Source: Deltaproteobacteria bacterium (GTDB lineage Bacteria > Desulfobacterota > Binatia > UTPRO1). Taken from it: a DNA stretch of 64,000 nt. The notes under the pieces are model-generated. The model did not search any database and was not told the origin of the DNA. It saw only the letters and a program-made list of their open reading frames with translations. The stretch is taken from the NCBI GenBank assembly GCA_020848745.1, contig JADLHM010000110.1, forward strand, positions 12,688-76,687, written 5' to 3'. Shown piece after piece: positions 53,315 through 59,556 of the stretch (positions are counted from its first letter, which is position 1; every line of letters starts with the position of its first letter). Both the position numbers and the translations under genes were made by a program.

Positions 53315-56300
53315 ATGAATCGCAAGCTCTCGCGTCGTGACTTCCTGCGCATCGCCGGCTCCGTGGGTCTCGGGACGGTCGCGGCGCCGGGCGCGCTCTT
53401 CGCCGGGTACCGGCACCTCGCGCCGATCGTGGTCGCCAACCCGCTCGCGGCCTATCCCGATCGCGAATGGGAGCGGCTCTATCGCGACGTCTTCCGCACT
53501 GAGGACAGCTTCACGTTCCTCTGCTGCCCGAACGACACGCACAACTGCTTGCTGCGCGCCTTCACGAAGAACGGCGTCGTCGTGCGCATCGAGCCGACCT
53601 ACGGCTACGGCAAGGCGACCGACCTCGCGGGCCACCAGGCGAGCCATCGCTGGGATCCGCGCTGCTGCCAGAAGGGCCTCGTGCTGGCGCGCCGCTTCTA
53701 CGGCGACCGGCGCGTGAACGGCGCCTTCCTCCGCAAGGGATTCAAGGAGTGGGTCGACCGCGGCTTCCCGCGCGATCCGGCAACCGGCGCGGCGCCGCCG
53801 GAACTCATGCGGCGCGGCTTCGACGCCTGGGTGAAGGTGCCGCACGAGGTCGCGTACGCCTACCACGCCAAGACGCTCGTGAACGTCGCAGAGACCTACT
53901 CCGGCGACGACGGCAAGAAGCGCCTCCTCGCGCAGGGCTACGACCCCGACATGGTCGAGCAGGTGGCCGGCGCCGGTACGCGGGTCATGAAGTTCCGCGG
54001 CGGTATGGCGAAGCAGGGGCCGGTCAGGATCTTCGGCTGCTTCCGCATGGGCAACTCGATGGCGCTCCTCGACCATCACGTGCGGAAGGTCTCGCCCGAC
54101 GACGCCAAGGGCGCCGGCTCGTGGGACTCGTACTCGTTCCACACCGACCTGCCGCCCGGGCACCCGATGGTGACCGGTGAGCAGACCAACGATTTCGAGC
54201 TCTTCGACGTCGAGAACGCGAAGCTCGTGATCGCCTGGGGCATGAATTGGATCACGACCAAGATGCCGGACAGCCACTGGCTGACCGAGGCGCGTCTGAA
54301 GGGCGTGAAGACGGTCGCGGTGACGGTCGAGTACTCGGCGACCGCTTCCAAGTGCGACGACGTCGTCGTGATCCGCCCCGGCACCGATCCGGCGCTGGCG
54401 CTCGGCGTCGCGCAGGTGCTCATCGCCGAGAAGCGCTACGACGCCGATTTCGTCCGCCGCTTCACCGATCTGCCGACCCTCGTCCGCATGGACACCCTCG
54501 AGCGTTTGAAGGCGGCCGACGTGTTCCCTGGCTACGCCGAGAAGCCGTGGCGGAACTGGGCGCAGGTGATCCCGACCGGGCAGAAGGCCCCGCCGACGCC
54601 GCAGCAGAACGGGGTGTACGTTCCCGAGGCGCTGAAGCCCGACTTCGCGGACTGTGTCGTGTGGGACGAGAAGCAGAAGCGGCCGGTCGCGATCGGCCAC
54701 GACGACGTCGGCGCCCACTTCGACGGGCTCGGCGTCCGGCCGGCGCTCGCCGGCACGTTCAAGGTGAAGCTCGCCGACGGCGCGACGGTCGAGGCGCGGC
54801 CGGTCTTCGACCTCACCGCCGAGTATCTCCGCGTCAACATGCGGCCCGAGCAGGTCCGCAAGATCACCTGGGCGCCGGAGGAGGCGATCCGCCGCCTCGC
54901 GCGCGACGTCGCGGAGAGCGGCGGCCGCACGCTCATCGCCTGCGGCATGGGGCCGAACCAGTTCTGGAACAACGACAACAAGGACCGCGCGCTCTTTCTC
55001 CTGCTCGCGCTCGCCGGGAGCCTCGGCCGCCACGGCGGCAACATCGGGAGCTACGCCGGGACCTACAAGAACACGCTCTTCTCGGGGATCGGCCGCTTCA
55101 CGACCGAGGACCCGTTCCATCTCCAGCTCGAGGCGACGGGCGAGATCAAGACCAAGTACTACCTGCGGCCCGAGTCGATGCACTACTGGGCGAACGGCGA
55201 GCGGGTGATGAAGGCGGGCACCAAGAAGATCACGACGGGCGCCCACCTGCCGACGCCGACCAAGGCCATCTGGCAGGTCAACTCGAACTCGAGCCTCGGC
55301 AACCAGAAGGGCTTCTACGACGTCGTCTTCAACACGCTGCCGCGCGCCGAGTGCGTCGTCTACAACGAGTGGTGGTGGACGGCGTCCTGCGAGTTCAGCG
55401 ACATCGTCTACGGGGTCGATGCCTGGATGGAGTTCAAGTATCCGGACATGACCGCCTCCAACACCAATCCGTTCCTCCAGCCGTACCCGACGACGCCCGC
55501 GCGCCGCGCCTTCGCGACGGTGTCCGACAACGAGACCTATCTCGGCGTCGCGCGCGAACTCGGGAAGCTCACGGAGGACGAGCGCTTCGAGCAGATGTGG
55601 CACTTCATCGCCGAGAAGAAGGCCGAGGTGTACCTGCAGCGCATCCTCGACGGCTCGGCGCCGATGAAGGGGTGGAAGATCGAAGAGGTGCTGGCGCGGG
55701 GCAAGGAGGGCGTGCCGGTCCTCGTGAACACCCGCACCTATCCGCGCCTGAACTCGTGGGAGCAGGTGCAGGAGTCGAAGCCCTGGCATACCAGGACGGG
55801 GCGGCTCGAGCTCTATCGGCCGGAGGTCGAGTTCGTGGAGGCGGGCGAGAACCTCGTCGTCCACCGCGAGCCCTCGGACGCGACCTTCTACGAGCCGTGC
55901 GCGATCGCCGCGGCGCCGCACCCGGCGATCCGCCCGAAGCGCCCGGTCGACTGGGGGATCGCGCCCGACGCGCGCGACCACAACACGCGGCAGATGCGCA
56001 ACGTCACGTTCAAAGTGGACGAGCTGGTGCGCACCAAGCATCCGCTCCGCGACCAGGGATGGGACCACGTCTTCCATACCCCGAAGTACCGCCACGGCGC
56101 GCATACCATGCCGATCGACACCGATTTCATGGCGGCGCTCTTCGGCCCCTTCGGCGACATGTACCGGCGCGACAAGCGCGCGCCTGGCGACGGCGAGATG
56201 TACGTCGACATCAATCCCGGCGACGCGCGGGCGCTCGGCATCGCCGACGGCGACTACGTCTGGATCGACGGCGATCCGAACGACCTGCCGTTTCGCGGCT

Positions 56301-56794
56301 GGGCCGATCCGGCGCGCGCCGAGCAGTACGTGGTCGCACGCTGCATGGCGCGCGCGCGCTACTATCCCGGCACGCCGCGCGGGATCACCCGCATGTGGTT
56401 CAACGGCTACATGGCGACGCCGGGCTCGGTGCGCGGCGCCGCCAGCCGTCCGGACGGTCTCGCCAAGAATCCCGAGACCAACTACCAGGCGCTCTTCCGC
56501 TTCGGCGGCCATCAGAGCATGACGCGCTCCTGGCTGAAGCCGACGCACCAGACGCACTCGCTCGTCACGCGGAAGTCGTGGACCAACGAGGTCACCAAGG
56601 GCTTCAACGTCGACGTGCACTGCGTGACGAGCGCGCCACGCGAGTCGCTCGCGCGCTTCACCAAGGCCGAGGACGGCGGCATCGGCGGCAAAGGCCTCTG
56701 GCGGCCGGTGACGCTCGGCCTCCGGCCGGGTGCGGAGAGCGCCGCGCTCCAGCGATACCTGCACGGCGGCTTCGTCGCCGTGCGCAAGGCGTGA
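53315..56794 (+). CDS. Tat-exported molybdopterin oxidoreductase alpha subunit, type II DMSO reductase family (NarG/Nxr/EbdA/SerA-like)
   Basis: 1159 aa. Twin-arginine signal [16 protein letters not shown]-terminal Cys/His FS0-like region ([11 protein letters not shown] ... RCC). Molybdopterin domain blocks. GGGAGG RBS. Confidence 0.85.
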
Positions 56795-56806
56795 AGGAGG
56801 GGCGAT

Positions 56807-57943: not shown

Positions 57944-58798
57944 ATGTCCACCCGATGGGGAACGAGGCTCGTGCTCGCCGCCGCCTTGGCGCTCGTGGCG
58001 GGAGAGGTGGGGGCGCAGATGGCCGAGCTGCGCGTCGTGCGCGTTCGCGAGAAGGGGCCGTTTCGCGACCCCGCCGCGGCGTTCTGGAAGGACGCGCCGG
58101 CGACCCCGGTGGCGTTGCTGCCGCAGGCGATGACGCTGCCGAACAACCTCAAGCCGGCGGTCCAGTCGCTGCAGGCCAAGGCGGTCCACGACGGCAAGTG
58201 GCTCGCGCTGCTTCTCGAATGGCCGGACGCCACCAGGAGCGACCGCATCGTGGTCGACCAGTTCGGCGATCAGGTCGCGATCGAGTTCCCGGCCGAGTTC
58301 AAGAAGGACGCGCTTCCGAGCCCGATGATGGGGAACCCGGGCGGGCGCGTCGAGATCTGGCAGTGGCGCGCCGCGTTCCAGCAGGATCTCGAGCGCGGCC
58401 GGCCGCAGGTCACCAACGACCTCTATCCGAACGCGCACGCCGATGTGTACCCGGACGAGCTCCTGCGGGCGATCGACGCCCGGCCCTACATGGGCGCGGT
58501 CGGCGTCGACAACCTGATCACGCACGCCGACAAGAGCCCCGTGCTCGAGCAGCTCGCGGAGGGCTGGGGCTCGCTCACGATCCAGCCCGACGACCAGCGG
58601 GCGGACGGGAAGGGGGTGTGGGCCGACGGCACCTGGCGCGTCGTCGTCACGCATCCGCTCGCGGGCGGCGAGGGCCATGTCGGCTTCGCGCCCGGCGGCG
58701 AGTCGGCGGTCGCGTTCGCCGTCTGGGACGGCGGCAGCCGCGAGGTCGGCCCGCGCAAGGCATGGTCCACCTGGGCCGCCCTGAAGCTCGCCGAGTGA
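57944..58798 (+). CDS. type II DMSO reductase-family gamma subunit (EB_dh haem b domain, EbdC/DdhC/SerC-like)
   Basis: About 284 aa from MSTRWGTRLVLAAALALVAG (signal). Periplasmic haem-b subunit fold. Start inside ORF 57929..58798. Confidence 0.75.
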   Translation: MSTRWGTRLVLAAALALVAGEVGAQMAELRVVRVREKGPFRDPAAAFWKDAPATPVALLPQAMTLPNNLKPAVQSLQAKAVHDGKWLALLLEWPDATRSDRIVVDQFGDQVAIEFPAEFKKDALPSPMMGNPGGRVEIWQWRAAFQQDLERGRPQVTNDLYPNAHADVYPDELLRAIDARPYMGAVGVDNLITHADKSPVLEQLAEGWGSLTIQPDDQRADGKGVWADGTWRVVVTHPLAGGEGHVGFAPGGESAVAFAVWDGGSREVGPRKAWSTWAALKLAE

Positions 58799-58806
58799 GG
58801 ACGACC

Positions 58807-59556
58807 ATGACCACCGCGAACGCATTGCAGGGGATCCGACGCGACGTTGCCGGCGCGCTCACGCGCGCGGGGGTGCTGCGGGCGCTGGCGCGCGGGCTCG
58901 ACGATCCGGCGGGCGCATGGCGCGCCGAGGTCGCCGACGGTTGGCGCGCGCTGCTCCGCGGCACCGGGGAATGGCCGGACGAGGTTCGCGCCGCGCTGGC
59001 GCGAGCGCTCACGAGCCTGGAAGTCGCGACCGACGACCTGGCGTCGGAGCACGTGCGCTTGTTCGGTCCGGCCGGCCGCGCCGCGCTCACCGAGACGTCC
59101 TGGGGCGACGCGGGGCGTCTGCTCGGGAAGGCGACCGCCCTCGCCGACCTCGGCGGGTTCTATCGCGCCTTCGGCGTCCAGCCCGACGCCGCGAGCCCGC
59201 GCCCCGAGGATCATCTTGCGCTCGAGCTCGAGTTCGTGAGCGTGCTCGCGCTCAAGGAGGCGTGGGCGCGGAGCGGCGGCGAGACGGAGGCGCTCGCGGT
59301 CACGCGCGACGCGACGGCGAAGTTCCTCGCCGACCATCTCGGGACGTGGATCGACGCCTGGTGCACCGCGTTGGCCGAGCAGGGAGCTCCCGATTTCTAC
59401 GTGGCGCTCGGCGAGGCCGTCCGCTGCGCTGTCCGTGCCGAGTGCGAGCGGCTTGCCGTGATCCCGCACACGGTCGCGGCACGGCTCCCGGAGGGCGATC
59501 TCGGTGGCGAGGCGTTCACCTGTCCGCGCGCCGATGCGGCCGACGCCACGGTCTGA
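58807..59556 (+). CDS. TorD/NarJ-family redox enzyme maturation chaperone (delta subunit)
   Basis: 249 aa from MTTANALQGIRRD, all-helical. EDHLALELEFVSVLA motif typical of NarJ/TorD/DmsD chaperones. Last gene of the ABCD operon. C-terminal part of artefactual ORF 57955..59556. Confidence 0.7.
   Translation: MTTANALQGIRRDVAGALTRAGVLRALARGLDDPAGAWRAEVADGWRALLRGTGEWPDEVRAALARALTSLEVATDDLASEHVRLFGPAGRAALTETSWGDAGRLLGKATALADLGGFYRAFGVQPDAASPRPEDHLALELEFVSVLALKEAWARSGGETEALAVTRDATAKFLADHLGTWIDAWCTALAEQGAPDFYVALGEAVRCAVRAECERLAVIPHTVAARLPEGDLGGEAFTCPRADAADATV

What the first reader, a model, noticed from the sequence alone, without database searches (positions are those of the whole stretch)
53315..59556. 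Tat-exported type II DMSO-reductase-family ABCD operon with NarG/Nxr-sized alpha and atypical FS0 Cys motif
The operon order alpha(1159 aa)-beta(375)-gamma(EB_dh haem b)-delta(NarJ/TorD chaperone) matches ethylbenzene dehydrogenase (ebdABCD). The alpha subunit is about 180 aa larger than EbdA, SerA or ClrA and approaches periplasmic NxrA/pNarG. It carries a Tat signal, so the active site is periplasmic. The N-terminal cluster-binding region reads [11 protein letters not shown]...RCC rather than the canonical H-x3-C-x3-C of NarG/EbdA. Candidate functions include periplasmic nitrate reductase or nitrite oxidoreductase (consistent with the NO-handling genes here), (per)chlorate or selenate reductase, or an anaerobic hydrocarbon or sterol hydroxylase.
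Basis: partly seen in the sequence, partly recalled or inferred. Interest (0 to 1): 0.7.

Follow-up and report, generated by a model that had tools for sequence, protein, structure and literature searches.

The report
Periplasmic Nxr-like nitrate reductase operon
This four-gene operon encodes a molybdenum enzyme, exported to the periplasm, that interconverts nitrate and nitrite; it belongs to a widespread, little-studied sister group of the nitrite oxidoreductases of nitrifiers, most likely works here as an anaerobic nitrate reductase, and is a recognisable member of a known kind rather than a new system.

Summary
Four co-oriented genes at 53315-59556 encode a Tat-signal alpha (1159 aa), an Fe-S beta (375 aa), an EB_dh haem-b gamma and a NarJ/TorD-type chaperone.

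The "odd" cluster motif is real but already explained. [10 protein letters not shown]...RCC aligns in register with the Cys67-x3-Asp71-x3-Cys75 (3Cys/1Asp) FS0 site seen in the crystal structure of Kuenenia nitrite oxidoreductase. That structure is a full-length match to the alpha subunit (E 1e-256).

In trees the alpha is not a canonical Nitrospira/Nitrospina/anammox NxrA (39-42% identity). It lies in a 100%-supported sister clade found in at least 587 species, including Magnetococcales, Thiomargarita, Rokubacteria, Myxococcota and Gaiellales. This clade also contains the non-canonical nitrate reductase of the methane-oxidising archaeon Methanoperedens.

The clade is a stand-alone ABCD cassette. 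An FNR-type palindrome precedes it in 31 of 71 loci, with a variant in this window. Here a Crp/Fnr regulator, qNor, NnrS and a glycyl-radical enzyme lie nearby.

Best reading: a periplasmic nitrate/nitrite oxidoreductase used for anaerobic nitrate respiration. Nitrite oxidation is not excluded. Chlorate or selenate reduction and hydrocarbon hydroxylation are unlikely.

Verdict: new member of a known, biochemically unstudied kind, of modest interest.

The parts
53078..53089 (.). Palindrome TGACGTTCGTCA, an FNR/Dnr-like box variant. It lies 226 bp upstream of the alpha ATG, in the divergent promoter region.
   Evidence: TGAC-N4-GTCA occurs 6 times in the window against 0.73 expected, and all six sites are intergenic. 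In the closest relative L001 the site is kept as TGACGTTCATCA within an otherwise diverged spacer. An exact FNR-type palindrome lies upstream of alpha in 31 of 71 related loci. No binding experiment exists, so the function is inferred.
53315..56794 (+). Alpha (catalytic) subunit, 1159 aa. A NxrA/NarG-like Mo-bis-PGD protein.
   Evidence: Full-length phmmer match to Kuenenia NXR-A 7b04_B (E 1e-256, 858 bits, residues 4-1156 against 2-1146). TIGR03479 scores 283 bits, far below its cut-off of 985. Falls in clade X with 100% bootstrap support.
53315..53404 (+). Twin-arginine (Tat) signal peptide. SRRDFLR lies at 53330-53350.
   Evidence: Read directly from the sequence. The RRxF[LIM] motif is kept in all 27 homologues extracted. 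Pfam TAT_signal E 0.006.
53522..53548 (+). FS0 [4Fe-4S] binding motif C70-C-P-N73-D74-T-H-N-C78. Ligands are C70, D74 and C78. N73 is the substrate-positioning Asn.
   Evidence: Aligns to Kuenenia C67/N70/D71/C75. 3Cys/1Asp coordination was seen in the crystal structure (PMC8387239). The Asp is kept in 76 of 77 clade-X alphas.
53666..53668 (+). Cys118, the fourth FS0 ligand, in the motif W-D-P-R-C-C118-Q-K-G.
   Evidence: Aligns with the Cys of the Kuenenia NPRMCLKG motif. The W[DN]PRxCxKG motif is present in 76 of 77 alphas.
54146..54148 (+). Asp278, the predicted molybdenum ligand, in [19 protein letters not shown].
   Evidence: Aligns with Kuenenia Asp275, which coordinates Mo in the structure. 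D-L-P-P is kept in 77 of 77 clade-X alphas.
56805..57932 (+). Beta subunit, 375 aa. NxrB/NarH-like, with four Fe-S cluster motifs. It has no signal peptide, so export is presumed to be by Tat 'hitch-hiking' with alpha.
   Evidence: 398 bits to Kuenenia NXR-B 7b04_A, 217 to PcrB, 202 to EbdB. Motifs found: C35-x2-C-x2-C-x3-C, C153-x2-C-x4-C-x3-C, C-R-G-Y-R-E-C-x3-C-P (the [3Fe-4S] type) and C213-x2-C-x11-C-x3-C.
57929..58798 (+). Gamma subunit (EB_dh haem b), with a Sec-type signal peptide and no other hydrophobic segment. The likely start is the ATG at 57944. Haem ligands are Met134 (58328-58330) and Lys277 (58757-58759), numbered from 57929.
   Evidence: PF09459 E 2.9e-27. Matches 7b04_C at E 8.8e-19 and EbdC at E 7e-15. 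The Met and Lys align with Kuenenia NXR-C Met155 and Lys305. Met is kept in 66 of 66 and Lys in 65 of 66 related gammas.
58807..59556 (+). Delta: a NarJ/TorD-family assembly chaperone that is not part of the mature enzyme.
   Evidence: PF02613 E 4.7e-19. TIGR03482 scores 69.6 bits, below its cut-off of 152. It is the fourth gene in 58 of 59 related loci.
61353..62135 (-). Crp/Fnr-family transcription regulator, a candidate regulator of the operon.
   Evidence: cNMP_binding plus HTH_Crp_2 domains. A homologous regulator lies next to the cassette in 12 other loci, often divergently just upstream. The link to the palindromes is inferred.

Best explanation
The operon encodes a periplasmic nitrate/nitrite oxidoreductase with an NXR-like build. 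It belongs to a large sister clade ('clade X') of the Nitrospira/Nitrospina/anammox nitrite oxidoreductases.

**Assembly (inferred from the families).**
- The delta chaperone holds the Tat signal of alpha while Mo-bis-PGD and the FS0 cluster are inserted.
- The folded alpha-beta pair is exported by Tat.
- Gamma is exported by Sec and receives one haem b.

**Electron path (ligands shown by alignment).**
- Molybdenum, ligated by Asp278.
- FS0 [4Fe-4S], ligated by Cys70/Asp74/Cys78/Cys118.
- Haem b in gamma, ligated by Met134/Lys277.
- A periplasmic c-type cytochrome or a quinol-oxidising membrane complex encoded elsewhere.

**Physiological direction (inferred).** Nitrate is reduced to nitrite when oxygen is scarce, as the first step of a partial denitrification that also uses the nearby qNor. 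Because the active site faces the periplasm, no nitrate importer is needed. Energy is conserved upstream, at quinol oxidation, rather than at the enzyme itself. The enzyme is probably reversible in vitro, as Kuenenia NXR is.
For: **Identity as an NXR/NAR-type enzyme.**
- Full-length matches to all three chains of Kuenenia NXR: alpha 858 bits, beta 398 bits, gamma 71 bits.
- The Mo-ligand Asp, the substrate Asn, the 3Cys/1Asp FS0 site and the Met/Lys haem ligands are all conserved.

**Placement.**
- Neighbour-joining trees give 100% support for clade X, 100% for the canonical pNXR clade, and 100% for the two together with a SAR202 lineage.
- Identity to Kuenenia and canonical NxrA is 39-42%; to N. 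defluvii NxrA it is 41%.

**Direction: a nitrate reductase inside the clade.**
- The N-terminal 400 aa of the Methanoperedens BLZ2 and IPS-1 enzymes fall inside clade X. They carry the same LCAPNDTHNC, RWDPRLCQKG and [11 protein letters not shown] motifs and are 54% identical to ours.
- These archaea couple methane oxidation to nitrate reduction. M. nitroreducens and IPS-1 have only this type of enzyme (PMC7327174).
- Its gene set is NarG, NarH, cytochrome Orf7 and NarJ (PMC5690323).

**Direction: regulation.**
- An exact FNR/Dnr-type palindrome lies within -500..+100 of the alpha start in 31 of 71 clade-X loci. Site density is 0.89/kb there against 0.054/kb elsewhere in the same loci.
- No such palindrome precedes the operon in five canonical pNXR loci, though one lies about 500 bp upstream of the cyt c-EB_dh gene in L093.
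- The window has the variant TGACGTTCGTCA 226 bp upstream, conserved in L001.
- Crp/Fnr regulator genes adjoin the cassette here and in 12 other loci.

**Direction: context and carriers.**
- qNor, NnrS and a strictly anaerobic-type glycyl-radical enzyme lie nearby. Sites of the same palindrome lie near the glycyl-radical gene: 757 bp upstream of it, and just downstream of it ahead of the next gene.
- Carriers include nitrate-respiring or nitrate-storing sulfur oxidisers (Thiomargarita, Thioploca, Thioalkalivibrio) and Magnetococcales. No known nitrite oxidiser appears among the 80 closest species.
- The 84%-identical homologue is in UTPRO1, a heterotroph of anoxic anammox granules. All heterotrophs there expressed genes annotated nar (PMC5460018).
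Against: - No enzyme of clade X has been purified, so the direction rests on context.
- The nearest solved relative is a nitrite oxidoreductase that works both ways.
- A nitrite-oxidising bacterium, Nitrotoga, is reported to carry an nxrABCD operon in a 'sister clade' of the canonical NXRs, with very similar subunit sizes (A 1169 aa, B 385 aa). I could not obtain its sequence, so it may lie in or next to clade X.
- The window site is only a variant of the FNR consensus, and no exact TTGA-N6-TCAA occurs in the window. The palindromes could instead belong to the two TetR regulators next to them.
- No nitrite reductase, cytochrome c partner or membrane anchor was found in the 64-kb window.
- Methanoperedens and N. 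defluvii could be placed only from their first ~400 residues.
- Trees are distance-based, not maximum likelihood.
Confidence: 0.6

Rival explanations
1. It is a true nitrite oxidoreductase. The organism oxidises nitrite to nitrate in the periplasm and passes the electrons through gamma haem b to cytochrome c and a terminal oxidase, or it uses the enzyme in both directions depending on redox conditions.
For: - The closest solved structure is Kuenenia NXR, with the same 3Cys/1Asp FS0 site and a high-potential Met/Lys haem b.
- The clade is sister to enzymes described as exclusively NXRs (PMC6050957).
- Nitrotoga and the proposed Nitrosediminicolota NXRs share the nxrABCD order.
- Authors have proposed nitrite oxidation for similar unannotated genes in Planctomycetota (PMC10732223).
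Against: - The alpha is only 39-42% identical to canonical NxrA and lies outside that clade with 100% support.
- The Mo-site sequence is H-T-D-L-P-P, with the D-L-P-P of NarG and other reductases, not the H-G-D-Q-[AD]-P of canonical NxrA.
- Canonical loci have a different layout: a gamma fused to c-type cytochrome domains, a small ORF between A and B, and a longer B of 412-428 aa. None of these features is present here.
- FNR-type boxes and Crp/Fnr regulators point to expression without oxygen.
- No known nitrite oxidiser is among the 80 closest carriers.
Confidence: 0.22
2. It is a periplasmic reductase for another oxyanion, such as chlorate, perchlorate or selenate, like ClrABC, PcrABCD or SerABC.
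For: - The same ABCD gene order and the same gamma and delta families as Pcr, Ser and Clr.
- PcrA is the second-best solved match (180 bits).
- Nitrate reductases are known to turn over chlorate and related anions as side reactions (stated for Methanoperedens in PMC13046784).
Against: - The alpha is about 27-29% identical to SerA and DdhA.
- It fails the curated type II model that those enzymes pass: 283 bits against a cut-off of 985, whereas a canonical member scores 1145 bits.
- FS0 is the C/D type, not the H-x3-C type.
- No chlorite dismutase or related gene turned up in any ORF of the window scanned against Pfam.
Confidence: 0.06
3. It is an anaerobic hydroxylase of hydrocarbons or sterols, of the ethylbenzene, p-cymene or steroid C25 dehydrogenase kind.
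For: - The gene order is identical to ebdABCD.
- Gamma is in the EB_dh family with Met/Lys haem ligation.
Against: - EbdA model: 134 bits against a cut-off of 2000. EbdB: 206 against 740. EbdC: 73 against 400.
- About 28% identity to EbdA.
- The substrate-positioning Asn of nitrate/nitrite enzymes is kept.
- No hydrocarbon or sterol catabolic genes are nearby.
- In every tree the whole clade groups with NXR, not with EbdA.
Confidence: 0.02

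Closest known systems
Kuenenia stuttgartiensis nitrite oxidoreductase NXR-ABC (PDB 7B04; Chicano et al. 2021, PMC8387239)
   Same: - All three subunits match over essentially their full length.
- Tat signal on alpha.
- FS0 with 3Cys/1Asp coordination.
- An Asp ligand to Mo and an Asn facing it.
- [3Fe-4S] motif C-R-G-Y-R-x-C-x3-C-P in beta.
- Haem b with Met/Lys ligands in gamma.
   Different: - Only 39% identity in alpha, and a separate clade with 100% support.
- H-T-D-L-P-P here against H-G-D-Q-A-P after the Mo site.
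- Beta lacks several Kuenenia insertions (375 against 410 aa).
- The gene layout is a plain ABCD cassette rather than a 15-gene cluster.
- No homologue of the tubule-forming NXR-T subunit was looked for or seen nearby.
- The host has no anammoxosome.
Non-canonical NarGH-Orf7-NarJ nitrate reductase of 'Candidatus Methanoperedens' (PMC5690323, PMC7327174)
   Same: - It falls inside the same clade (100% bootstrap on the N-terminal ~400 aa).
- Identical FS0, fourth-Cys and Mo-site motifs, and a Tat-type RR motif.
- The same four components: catalytic subunit, Fe-S subunit, cytochrome Orf7 and chaperone.
- It faces outward (pseudoperiplasm) and is fed through cytochrome c.
   Different: - About 54% identity.
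- It is closer to the Myxococcota/Bdellovibrionota/Thioploca subgroup (59-63%) than to the subgroup of this window.
- The host is an archaeon that acquired the genes laterally.
- Extra putative membrane anchors (HCOII, NapH) are reported there and were not seen here.
- Only the first ~400 residues could be compared.
Nitrotoga nitrite oxidoreductase NxrABCD (Kitzinger 2018, PMC6050957; Boddicker and Mosier 2018)
   Same: - nxrABCD order.
- Tat signal on A, Sec signal on C, no transmembrane helix in C.
- Similar sizes: A 1169, B 385 aa.
- Similar distance from the TIGR03479/03478/03477 models.
- Described as a sister clade of the canonical periplasmic NXRs, which also contains nitrate reductases of bacteria and archaea.
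   Different: - Its Mo motif is reported to end in Q-M, whereas this one ends in Q-T.
- Its gamma is about 370 aa against 284-289 here.
- It belongs to a proven aerobic nitrite oxidiser.
- It was not among the 80 closest GTDB species (55% identity or more).
Canonical periplasmic NXR of Nitrospira, Nitrospina and relatives
   Same: - Same superclade (100% support).
- Same overall size and Tat export.
- Many members share the C-x3-D-x3-C FS0 motif (N. defluvii NxrA1/2).
   Different: - 40-42% identity.
- Operon layout is [cyt c-cyt c-EB_dh gamma]-A-small ORF-B(412-428 aa)-D.
- No FNR-type box directly precedes the operon in five loci.
- Some members (Nitrospinota, NC10, Tectomicrobia) have Cys instead of Asp in FS0.
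Ethylbenzene dehydrogenase EbdABCD (PDB 2IVF) and other canonical type II enzymes (PcrABCD, SerABC, DdhABC)
   Same: - Gene order.
- A soluble periplasmic heterotrimer with Tat-exported alpha-beta.
- Gamma of the EB_dh family with Met/Lys haem b.
- A NarJ/TorD-type chaperone.
   Different: - Alpha is 27-29% identical and about 180-260 aa longer.
- FS0 is H-x3-C-x3-C in those enzymes.
- All four subunits score far below the curated cut-offs of the type II and Ebd models.
Membrane-bound respiratory nitrate reductase NarGHJI (E. coli, PDB 1Q16)
   Same: - The same reaction is predicted.
- The D-L-P-P sequence after the Mo-ligand Asp.
- The same arrangement of four clusters in the Fe-S subunit.
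- A NarJ-type chaperone.
   Different: - 27% identity in alpha.
- NarG faces the cytoplasm and has no Tat export.
- FS0 has a His ligand.
- The third subunit is the dihaem membrane protein NarI, which builds a redox loop. Here it is a soluble monohaem EB_dh protein, so the enzyme itself is not expected to be electrogenic.

Membership tests
Type II DMSO-reductase family (broad sense: NarG/EbdA/Nxr-type alpha-beta-gamma enzymes) | Alpha subunit with an Asp ligand to Mo in the Y-x4-D motif | tested here: met
   Y273-SFHT-D278 aligns with Kuenenia Asp275, which binds Mo in the structure.
Type II DMSO-reductase family (broad sense: NarG/EbdA/Nxr-type alpha-beta-gamma enzymes) | N-terminal FS0 motif [H/C]-x3-[C/D]-x3-C-xn-C | tested here: met
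   C70-x3-D74-x3-C78...C118, in register with H-x3-C-x3-C of NarG, SerA and EbdA in the alignments.
Type II DMSO-reductase family (broad sense: NarG/EbdA/Nxr-type alpha-beta-gamma enzymes) | [quoted passage not shown] | tested here: met
   Four Cys groups are present, including C-R-G-Y-R-E-C-x3-C-P. 398 bits to Kuenenia NXR-B.
Type II DMSO-reductase family (broad sense: NarG/EbdA/Nxr-type alpha-beta-gamma enzymes) | Scores above the curated cut-offs of TIGR03479, TIGR03478, TIGR03477 and TIGR03482 | tested here: not met
   Scores against cut-offs: 283/985, 253/481, 127/170 and 70/152 bits. Kuenenia-type NxrA also fails at about 350 bits. The models therefore do not cover the NXR-like branch. 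This excludes membership of the curated subfamily, not of the wider family.
Canonical periplasmic NXR (Nitrospira/Nitrospina/anammox type) | Alpha falls inside the canonical NxrA clade | tested here: not met
   39-42% identity. The canonical clade and clade X are each supported at 100% and are separate.
Canonical periplasmic NXR (Nitrospira/Nitrospina/anammox type) | Tat-exported alpha with FS0 of the Cys/Asp type | tested here: met
   and PMC8387239.
Canonical periplasmic NXR (Nitrospira/Nitrospina/anammox type) | Characteristic locus: gamma fused to c-type cytochrome domains, a small ORF between A and B, and a B of about 410-430 aa | tested here: not met
   This layout was seen in five canonical loci. 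Here the locus is a plain A-B(375)-C(EB_dh only)-D.
Canonical periplasmic NXR (Nitrospira/Nitrospina/anammox type) | Nitrite-oxidising activity that supports growth | not testable with these tools
   Needs enzyme assays or physiology.
Clade X: NXR-like periplasmic nitrate reductases of the Methanoperedens NarGH-Orf7-NarJ kind | Alpha groups with the Methanoperedens enzyme to the exclusion of canonical NxrA, NarG, EbdA, SerA and DdhA | tested here: met
   100% bootstrap in a neighbour-joining tree of 428 N-terminal columns, with shared motifs. Only the first ~400 residues of the archaeal sequences were available.
Clade X: NXR-like periplasmic nitrate reductases of the Methanoperedens NarGH-Orf7-NarJ kind | Four-component gene set (catalytic, Fe-S, EB_dh cytochrome, NarJ chaperone) in ABCD order | tested here: met
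   ABCD order in 58 of 59 related loci and in the window. The composition in Methanoperedens is taken from PMC5690323.
Clade X: NXR-like periplasmic nitrate reductases of the Methanoperedens NarGH-Orf7-NarJ kind | Nitrate-reducing activity in vivo | not testable with these tools
   Supported only indirectly, by FNR-type boxes, Crp/Fnr neighbours and the denitrification context.
Nitrotoga-type NXR | Alpha groups with Nitrotoga NxrA | not tested
   No Nitrotoga sequence could be retrieved. It is absent from the top 80 GTDB hits and from the named hits of three protein searches.
Ethylbenzene dehydrogenase and related hydroxylases | Alpha, beta and gamma reach the EbdA/B/C equivalog cut-offs, and FS0 has a His ligand | tested here: not met
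   Scores against cut-offs: 134/2000, 206/740 and 73/400 bits. FS0 has Cys where EbdA has His. 28% identity.
(Per)chlorate or selenate reductases (PcrA, ClrA, SerA) | Alpha within the canonical type II clade, with an accompanying chlorite dismutase for (per)chlorate | tested here: not met
   27% identity to SerA and a 180-bit partial match to PcrA. It lies outside that clade. No chlorite dismutase was found in the window.

The most novel reading that the evidence does not exclude
Clade X enzymes, including this one, may be genuinely bidirectional in vivo. The invariant 3Cys/1Asp FS0 and the high-potential Met/Lys haem b would then let non-nitrifying bacteria gain energy or detoxify by oxidising nitrite when a suitable acceptor is present. 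Candidates include Binatota/Myxococcota-like heterotrophs, magnetotactic cocci, and purple sulfur bacteria such as Thioalkalicoccus. This would add hundreds of species to the list of potential nitrite oxidisers, possibly including anoxygenic phototrophic ones.
Probability: 0.12. Interest if true: 0.7.

Novelty: new member of a known kind. Interest (0 to 1): 0.3.

Why it matters
**Effect on nitrogen-cycle annotation.**
- Genes of this clade occur in at least 587 species-level genomes.
- They are usually annotated either generically or as 'nitrate reductase / nitrite oxidoreductase alpha subunit'.
- In metagenomic nitrogen budgets they can be counted as nitrite-oxidation markers. One study proposed exactly that for Planctomycetota.
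- The evidence here points the other way for most carriers: the clade includes the Methanoperedens nitrate reductase, FNR-type boxes are enriched about 16-fold upstream of the operon, Crp/Fnr regulators are frequent neighbours, and this window has a denitrification context.
- These features indicate an outward-facing, Nar-related nitrate reductase distinct from both NarGHI and Nap.

**Limits.** For this particular window the result is ordinary: an intact, already deposited member of that clade. The 'atypical' cluster motif is the known Asp-ligated FS0 of NXR-type enzymes.

Tried and rejected
**Searches that gave nothing useful.**
- An exact-sequence look-up of the window's alpha in the assembly index found nothing, although the identical protein is in the protein collection (P0001).
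- An exact FNR consensus, TTGA-N6-TCAA, does not occur in the window. My first palindrome pattern had the wrong spacing and also found nothing. The correct pattern, TGAC-N4-GTCA, gave six sites.
- The 50%-identity representative search plus cluster look-up gave no cultured organism of known physiology. Cluster listings are at 90% identity, and they named only MAG lineages (Gaiellaceae, SAR202, Tectimicrobiota and others).

**Attempts to place the enzyme relative to Nitrotoga and Hydrogenobacter.**
- The third protein search, with the Gaiellaceae representative P0121, returned only Gaiellales, Rokubacteria and Chloroflexota names.
- Papers gave descriptions but no sequences.
- This comparison remains undone.

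**Partial reference sequences.** Reference sequences came from a supplementary table of PMC7327174. They were truncated at about 400 residues when stored, so Methanoperedens, N. defluvii, NarG, EbdA, SerA and DdhA could be compared only over the N-terminal part.

**Conserved partner genes.**
- A search for a conserved electron-transfer partner or membrane anchor next to the cassette in 80 loci found none.
- The recurring neighbours are regulators, MoaA in one subgroup, and an unannotated ~270-aa protein upstream in the Myxococcota/Bdellovibrionota subgroup.
- The 1476-aa multihaem-motif protein next to the operon is conserved only in the closest relative, so I rejected it as an obligatory partner.

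**Other.**
- A plasmid search found only a frameshifted haloarchaeal homologue and a distant one.
- Structure prediction was not run. The match to a solved structure over the whole length made it unnecessary.

Full report
**1. What is there**

The window is GC-rich (about 65-75%). On the + strand between 53315 and 59556 lie four tightly spaced genes with strong third-position GC bias (0.92-0.94 for the three listed ORFs), as expected of real genes.

- Alpha: 53315-56794, 1159 aa.
- Beta: starts at the ATG at 56805, 6 nt behind GAAGGAGGGG, and ends at 57932 (375 aa).
- Gamma: starts at the GTG at 57929 or, more likely, the ATG at 57944, and ends at 58798.
- Delta: 58807-59556.

Pfam finds Molybdopterin in alpha, Fer4_11 in beta, EB_dh in gamma and Nitrate_red_del in delta. 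NCBIfam ranks the four 'type II DMSO reductase' subfamily models first. All four score far below the curated cut-offs: 283/985, 253/481, 127/170 and 70/152 bits.

**2. The alpha subunit and its 'odd' cluster motif**

Against all solved structures the alpha matches Kuenenia stuttgartiensis nitrite oxidoreductase subunit A (7B04) from residue 4 to 1156, at E 1e-256 and 858 bits. The next matches are partial and much weaker: PcrA 180 bits, NarG about 130 and EbdA 120.

In that alignment [13 protein letters not shown] lies opposite FTYCCSPNDTHAC. The paper on the structure states the following (PMC8387239):
- FS0 is bound by three cysteines and Asp71.
- Cys67 stands where NarG and EbdA have the histidine.
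- Asn70 faces the molybdenum.
- Asp275 ligates the molybdenum.

Translated to this protein:
- FS0 ligands are Cys70, Asp74, Cys78 and Cys118.
- Asn73 is the substrate-positioning residue.
- Asp278 is the Mo ligand.

The second Cys of each 'CC' pair is not a ligand. It is Ala or Ser in most relatives. The motif is therefore in register with H-x3-C-x3-C and represents a known variant. Across 77 related alphas the Asp is present in 76, the fourth-Cys motif in 76, and D-L-P-P after the Mo ligand in all 77.

The N-terminus reads [12 protein letters not shown] followed by a hydrophobic stretch. This is a twin-arginine signal, and all extracted homologues share it.

**3. Beta, gamma and delta**

*Beta.* It matches Kuenenia NXR-B at 398 bits, PcrB at 217 and EbdB at 202. 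It lacks several insertions of the anammox protein. It has four cysteine groups, the third being C-R-G-Y-R-E-C-x3-C-P, the pattern of the [3Fe-4S] cluster. It has no signal peptide.

*Gamma.* It has a Sec-type signal (MSTRWGTRLVLAAALALVAGEVGAQ) and no other hydrophobic segment. It matches Kuenenia NXR-C (E 9e-19) and EbdC (E 7e-15). Its Met134 and Lys277 align with the haem-b ligands Met155 and Lys305 of NXR-C. They are kept in 66 of 66 and 65 of 66 related gammas.

*Delta.* It is a NarJ/TorD-type chaperone.

**4. Where it sits among relatives**

The identical protein is already public, from a Deltaproteobacteria MAG.

A scan of one genome per species found relatives in at least 587 species. 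The best 80 are 55-95% identical:
- An unnamed Deltaproteobacteria MAG, 95%.
- 'Polyangiaceae' UTPRO1, 84%. This MAG is placed in the phylum Binatota by PMC8262859.
- Magnetococcales, Thiomargarita, Hyphomicrobium, Burkholderiales, Thioalkalivibrio thiocyanoxidans, Thioalkalicoccus limnaeus, Rokubacteria and Methylomirabilota, 65-79%.
- A second subgroup at 55-58%: Myxococcota, Bdellovibrionota, Thioploca and others.
- Gaiellales at 50%.

I rebuilt Kuenenia NxrA from the printed alignments. I used it to fetch canonical NxrA-type proteins, including Nitrospinota, Brocadiia and NC10, which are 65-85% identical to Kuenenia.

On a trimmed full-length alignment of 1126 columns, this alpha is 39% identical to Kuenenia NxrA and 40-42% to the other canonical proteins. 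A neighbour-joining tree with 100 bootstraps gives:
- 100% for the whole NXR-like group.
- 100% for the canonical clade.
- 100% for the clade holding this protein, here called clade X.
- 100% for its inner subgroup.
- 81% for clade X plus a SAR202 lineage.

Reference sequences stored with PMC7327174 were cut at about 400 residues but include the cluster and Mo motifs. With them:
- N. defluvii NxrA1 and NxrA2 join the canonical clade (41% identity to ours).
- NarG, EbdA, SerA and DdhA lie far outside (21-32%).
- The Methanoperedens BLZ2 and IPS-1 enzymes fall inside clade X with 100% support. They are 54% identical to ours and 59-63% identical to the Myxococcota/Thioploca subgroup.
- A frameshifted copy on a Natronococcus occultus megaplasmid (47-51% identical) also carries CTPNDTHNC.

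**5. A self-contained, mobile cassette**

The order ABCD is found in 58 of 59 loci where all four genes were detected. The flanks of the window's operon are shared only with the 95% relative. They are not shared with UTPRO1 or anything else.

The alpha and beta genes have 65-69% GC against 74% for the gene upstream. The window's alpha nests among proteobacterial sequences, while most Myxococcota carry the other subgroup. Together these points indicate lateral transfer of the cassette.

No cytochrome c, membrane anchor or other partner is conserved beside the cassette.

Canonical NXR loci look different. They have a gamma fused to two c-type cytochrome domains, a small ORF between A and B, a B of 412-428 aa, then the chaperone.

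**6. Clues to the direction of the reaction**

(a) *A nitrate reductase inside the clade.* Methanoperedens couples methane oxidation to nitrate reduction. M. nitroreducens and IPS-1 carry only the clade-X type enzyme. The enzyme is described as a non-canonical NarGH with cytochrome Orf7 and NarJ, located in the pseudoperiplasm and fed through cytochrome c.

(b) *FNR-type sites.*
- An exact FNR/Dnr-type palindrome (TTGA-N6-TCAA or TGAC-N4-GTCA) lies within -500..+100 of the alpha start in 31 of 71 loci.
- Site density there is 0.89 per kb, against 0.054 per kb in the rest of the same loci.
- In five canonical loci none directly precedes the operon.
- The window has no exact TTGA-N6-TCAA.
- It does have six TGACGTnnGTCA palindromes against 0.73 expected, all intergenic. 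They lie at 27970, 44912, 48346, 53078, 59607 and 60658.
- The site at 53078 is 226 bp upstream of alpha. In the closest relative it is preserved as TGACGTTCATCA inside a diverged spacer.

(c) *Regulators.* A Crp/Fnr-family regulator lies 1.8 kb downstream of delta. Homologues adjoin the cassette in 12 other loci, often divergently just upstream.

(d) *Context.* The window also holds a qNor-type nitric oxide reductase, NnrS and a PFL-like glycyl-radical enzyme. It holds no chlorite dismutase or hydrocarbon-degradation genes.

(e) *Carriers.* UTPRO1 lives in anoxic anammox granules, where all heterotrophs expressed genes annotated nar.

None of this is a measurement of activity.

**7. Most likely mechanism**

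*Shown by alignment:* the cofactor ligands and the order of redox centres, namely Mo, FS0, FS1-FS4 and haem b.

*Inferred from the families:*
- Delta-assisted cofactor insertion.
- Tat export of the alpha-beta pair.
- Sec export of gamma.
- A soluble or peripheral periplasmic heterotrimer.

*Inferred from context:* electrons come from the quinol pool through a bc-type complex and cytochrome c to haem b, and nitrate is reduced to nitrite under low oxygen. Protons are consumed outside the membrane, so the enzyme itself should not be electrogenic. No nitrate importer is needed.

I put about 0.9 on 'nitrate/nitrite oxidoreductase' and about 0.6 on nitrate reduction as the main physiological role.

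**8. Comparison and membership**

The enzyme is built like Kuenenia NXR and probably works like the Methanoperedens nitrate reductase.

It is not a member of the canonical NXR clade, for these reasons:
- The tree separates the two clades.
- The Mo-site sequence is H-T-D-L-P-P rather than H-G-D-Q-[AD]-P.
- The locus layout differs.

It is also not a member of the curated type II subfamily that contains Ebd, Ser, Clr, Ddh and Pcr. Its relation to the Nitrotoga NXR could not be tested. That enzyme has the same ABCD order, similar alpha and beta subunit sizes (gamma is ~370 aa there against 284-289 here), and is described as lying in a sister clade of canonical NXRs.

**9. Verdict**

The finding is real and well described, but the striking motif is already explained by a crystal structure. 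The operon is one more member of a very common, already sequenced clade. The open point is the direction in which clade-X enzymes work in bacteria. It is of interest to nitrogen-cycle specialists but is not specific to this window.

**Limits of this analysis**
- Trees are distance-based, not maximum likelihood.
- Several references were compared over only 400 residues.
- No Nitrotoga or Hydrogenobacter sequence was available.
- The regulatory sites are predictions.

Noticed in passing
window 28356-38744 (+): Six consecutive paralogous genes for FAD-dependent oxidoreductases of the amine-oxidase/phytoene-desaturase type (493-625 aa each). They lie in a block of lower GC (about 65% against 72%) spanning roughly 28-44 kb, which also contains qNor. 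A TGACGTTGGTCA palindrome sits just upstream at 27970. The nearest named relative (UTPRO1, Binatota) is reported to specialise in unusual carotenoids (PMC8262859), so these may be carotenoid desaturases.
   Followed up: partly
window 48588-53018 (-): A 1476-aa secreted protein transcribed divergently from the operon. It has an N-terminal glucose/sorbosone-dehydrogenase-type domain (Pfam GSDH), Cys-rich 'Dictyostelium' repeats and five CxxCH haem-c motifs at residues 779-1009. No Pfam cytochrome family matches. It is conserved only in the 95% relative L001, so it is not a general partner of the enzyme.
   Followed up: partly
window 27970, 44912, 48346, 53078, 59607, 60658: Six exact TGACGTnnGTCA palindromes (0.73 expected), all in intergenic DNA. 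They lie upstream of the FAD-oxidoreductase array, around the glycyl-radical enzyme gene (one 757 bp upstream of it, one just downstream of it and ahead of the next gene), upstream of the nxr-like operon, and upstream of each of two TetR genes. This looks like one regulon. Whether the Crp/Fnr protein or the TetR proteins bind them is unknown.
   Followed up: partly
window 40761-43175 (-), 23887-25128 (+), 44998-47589 (-): A quinol-type nitric oxide reductase (COX1 plus the NorB cytochrome-c-like domain, 804 aa), NnrS, and an 863-aa PFL-like glycyl-radical enzyme. Together they indicate an anaerobic, NO-handling lifestyle. No nitrite reductase gene lies in the window.
   Followed up: partly
P0125 (representative search; alignment): A 1104-aa relative of clade X with a degenerate FS0 motif (CADPEGHGC) and a deletion in the Y-x4-D region where the Mo-ligand Asp should be. 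It may be a non-catalytic paralogue or an assembly error.
   Followed up: no
P0397, P0337, P0411 against Kuenenia and N. defluvii: Within the canonical NXR clade, the Nitrospinota, NC10 and Tectomicrobia proteins have Cys (CSPNCTHEC) where Kuenenia, Nitrospira defluvii and all of clade X have Asp. The Asp ligand of FS0 is therefore not universal among nitrite oxidoreductases, yet it is nearly invariant in clade X (76 of 77).
   Followed up: partly
L094 (Natronococcus occultus SP4 plasmid 2, locus coordinates about 5650-9200): A haloarchaeal megaplasmid carries a clade-X-like alpha (47-51% identical, CTPNDTHNC motif) that is frameshifted near residue 100 and not annotated. It is followed by beta and TorD-family chaperone genes, preceded by a P-loop NTPase gene, and lies near a haem-copper oxidase/NorB-like gene. 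No EB_dh gamma is annotated there.
   Followed up: partly
L059, L062, L064, L067-L069, L071, L074-L077 (directly upstream of alpha): In the Myxococcota/Bdellovibrionota subgroup a conserved gene of about 270 aa with no Pfam match sits immediately upstream of alpha on the same strand (11 loci). MoaA follows the cassette in 7 loci of this subgroup. Neither gene is present in the window.
   Followed up: partly
L080 (Thioalkalicoccus limnaeus Um2) and L030 (Thioalkalivibrio thiocyanoxidans ARh2): Two cultured organisms, a purple sulfur bacterium and a haloalkaliphilic sulfur oxidiser, carry intact clade-X operons (67-68% identical alpha) with an FNR-type box upstream. They would be practical hosts for testing the enzyme's direction.
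   Followed up: no
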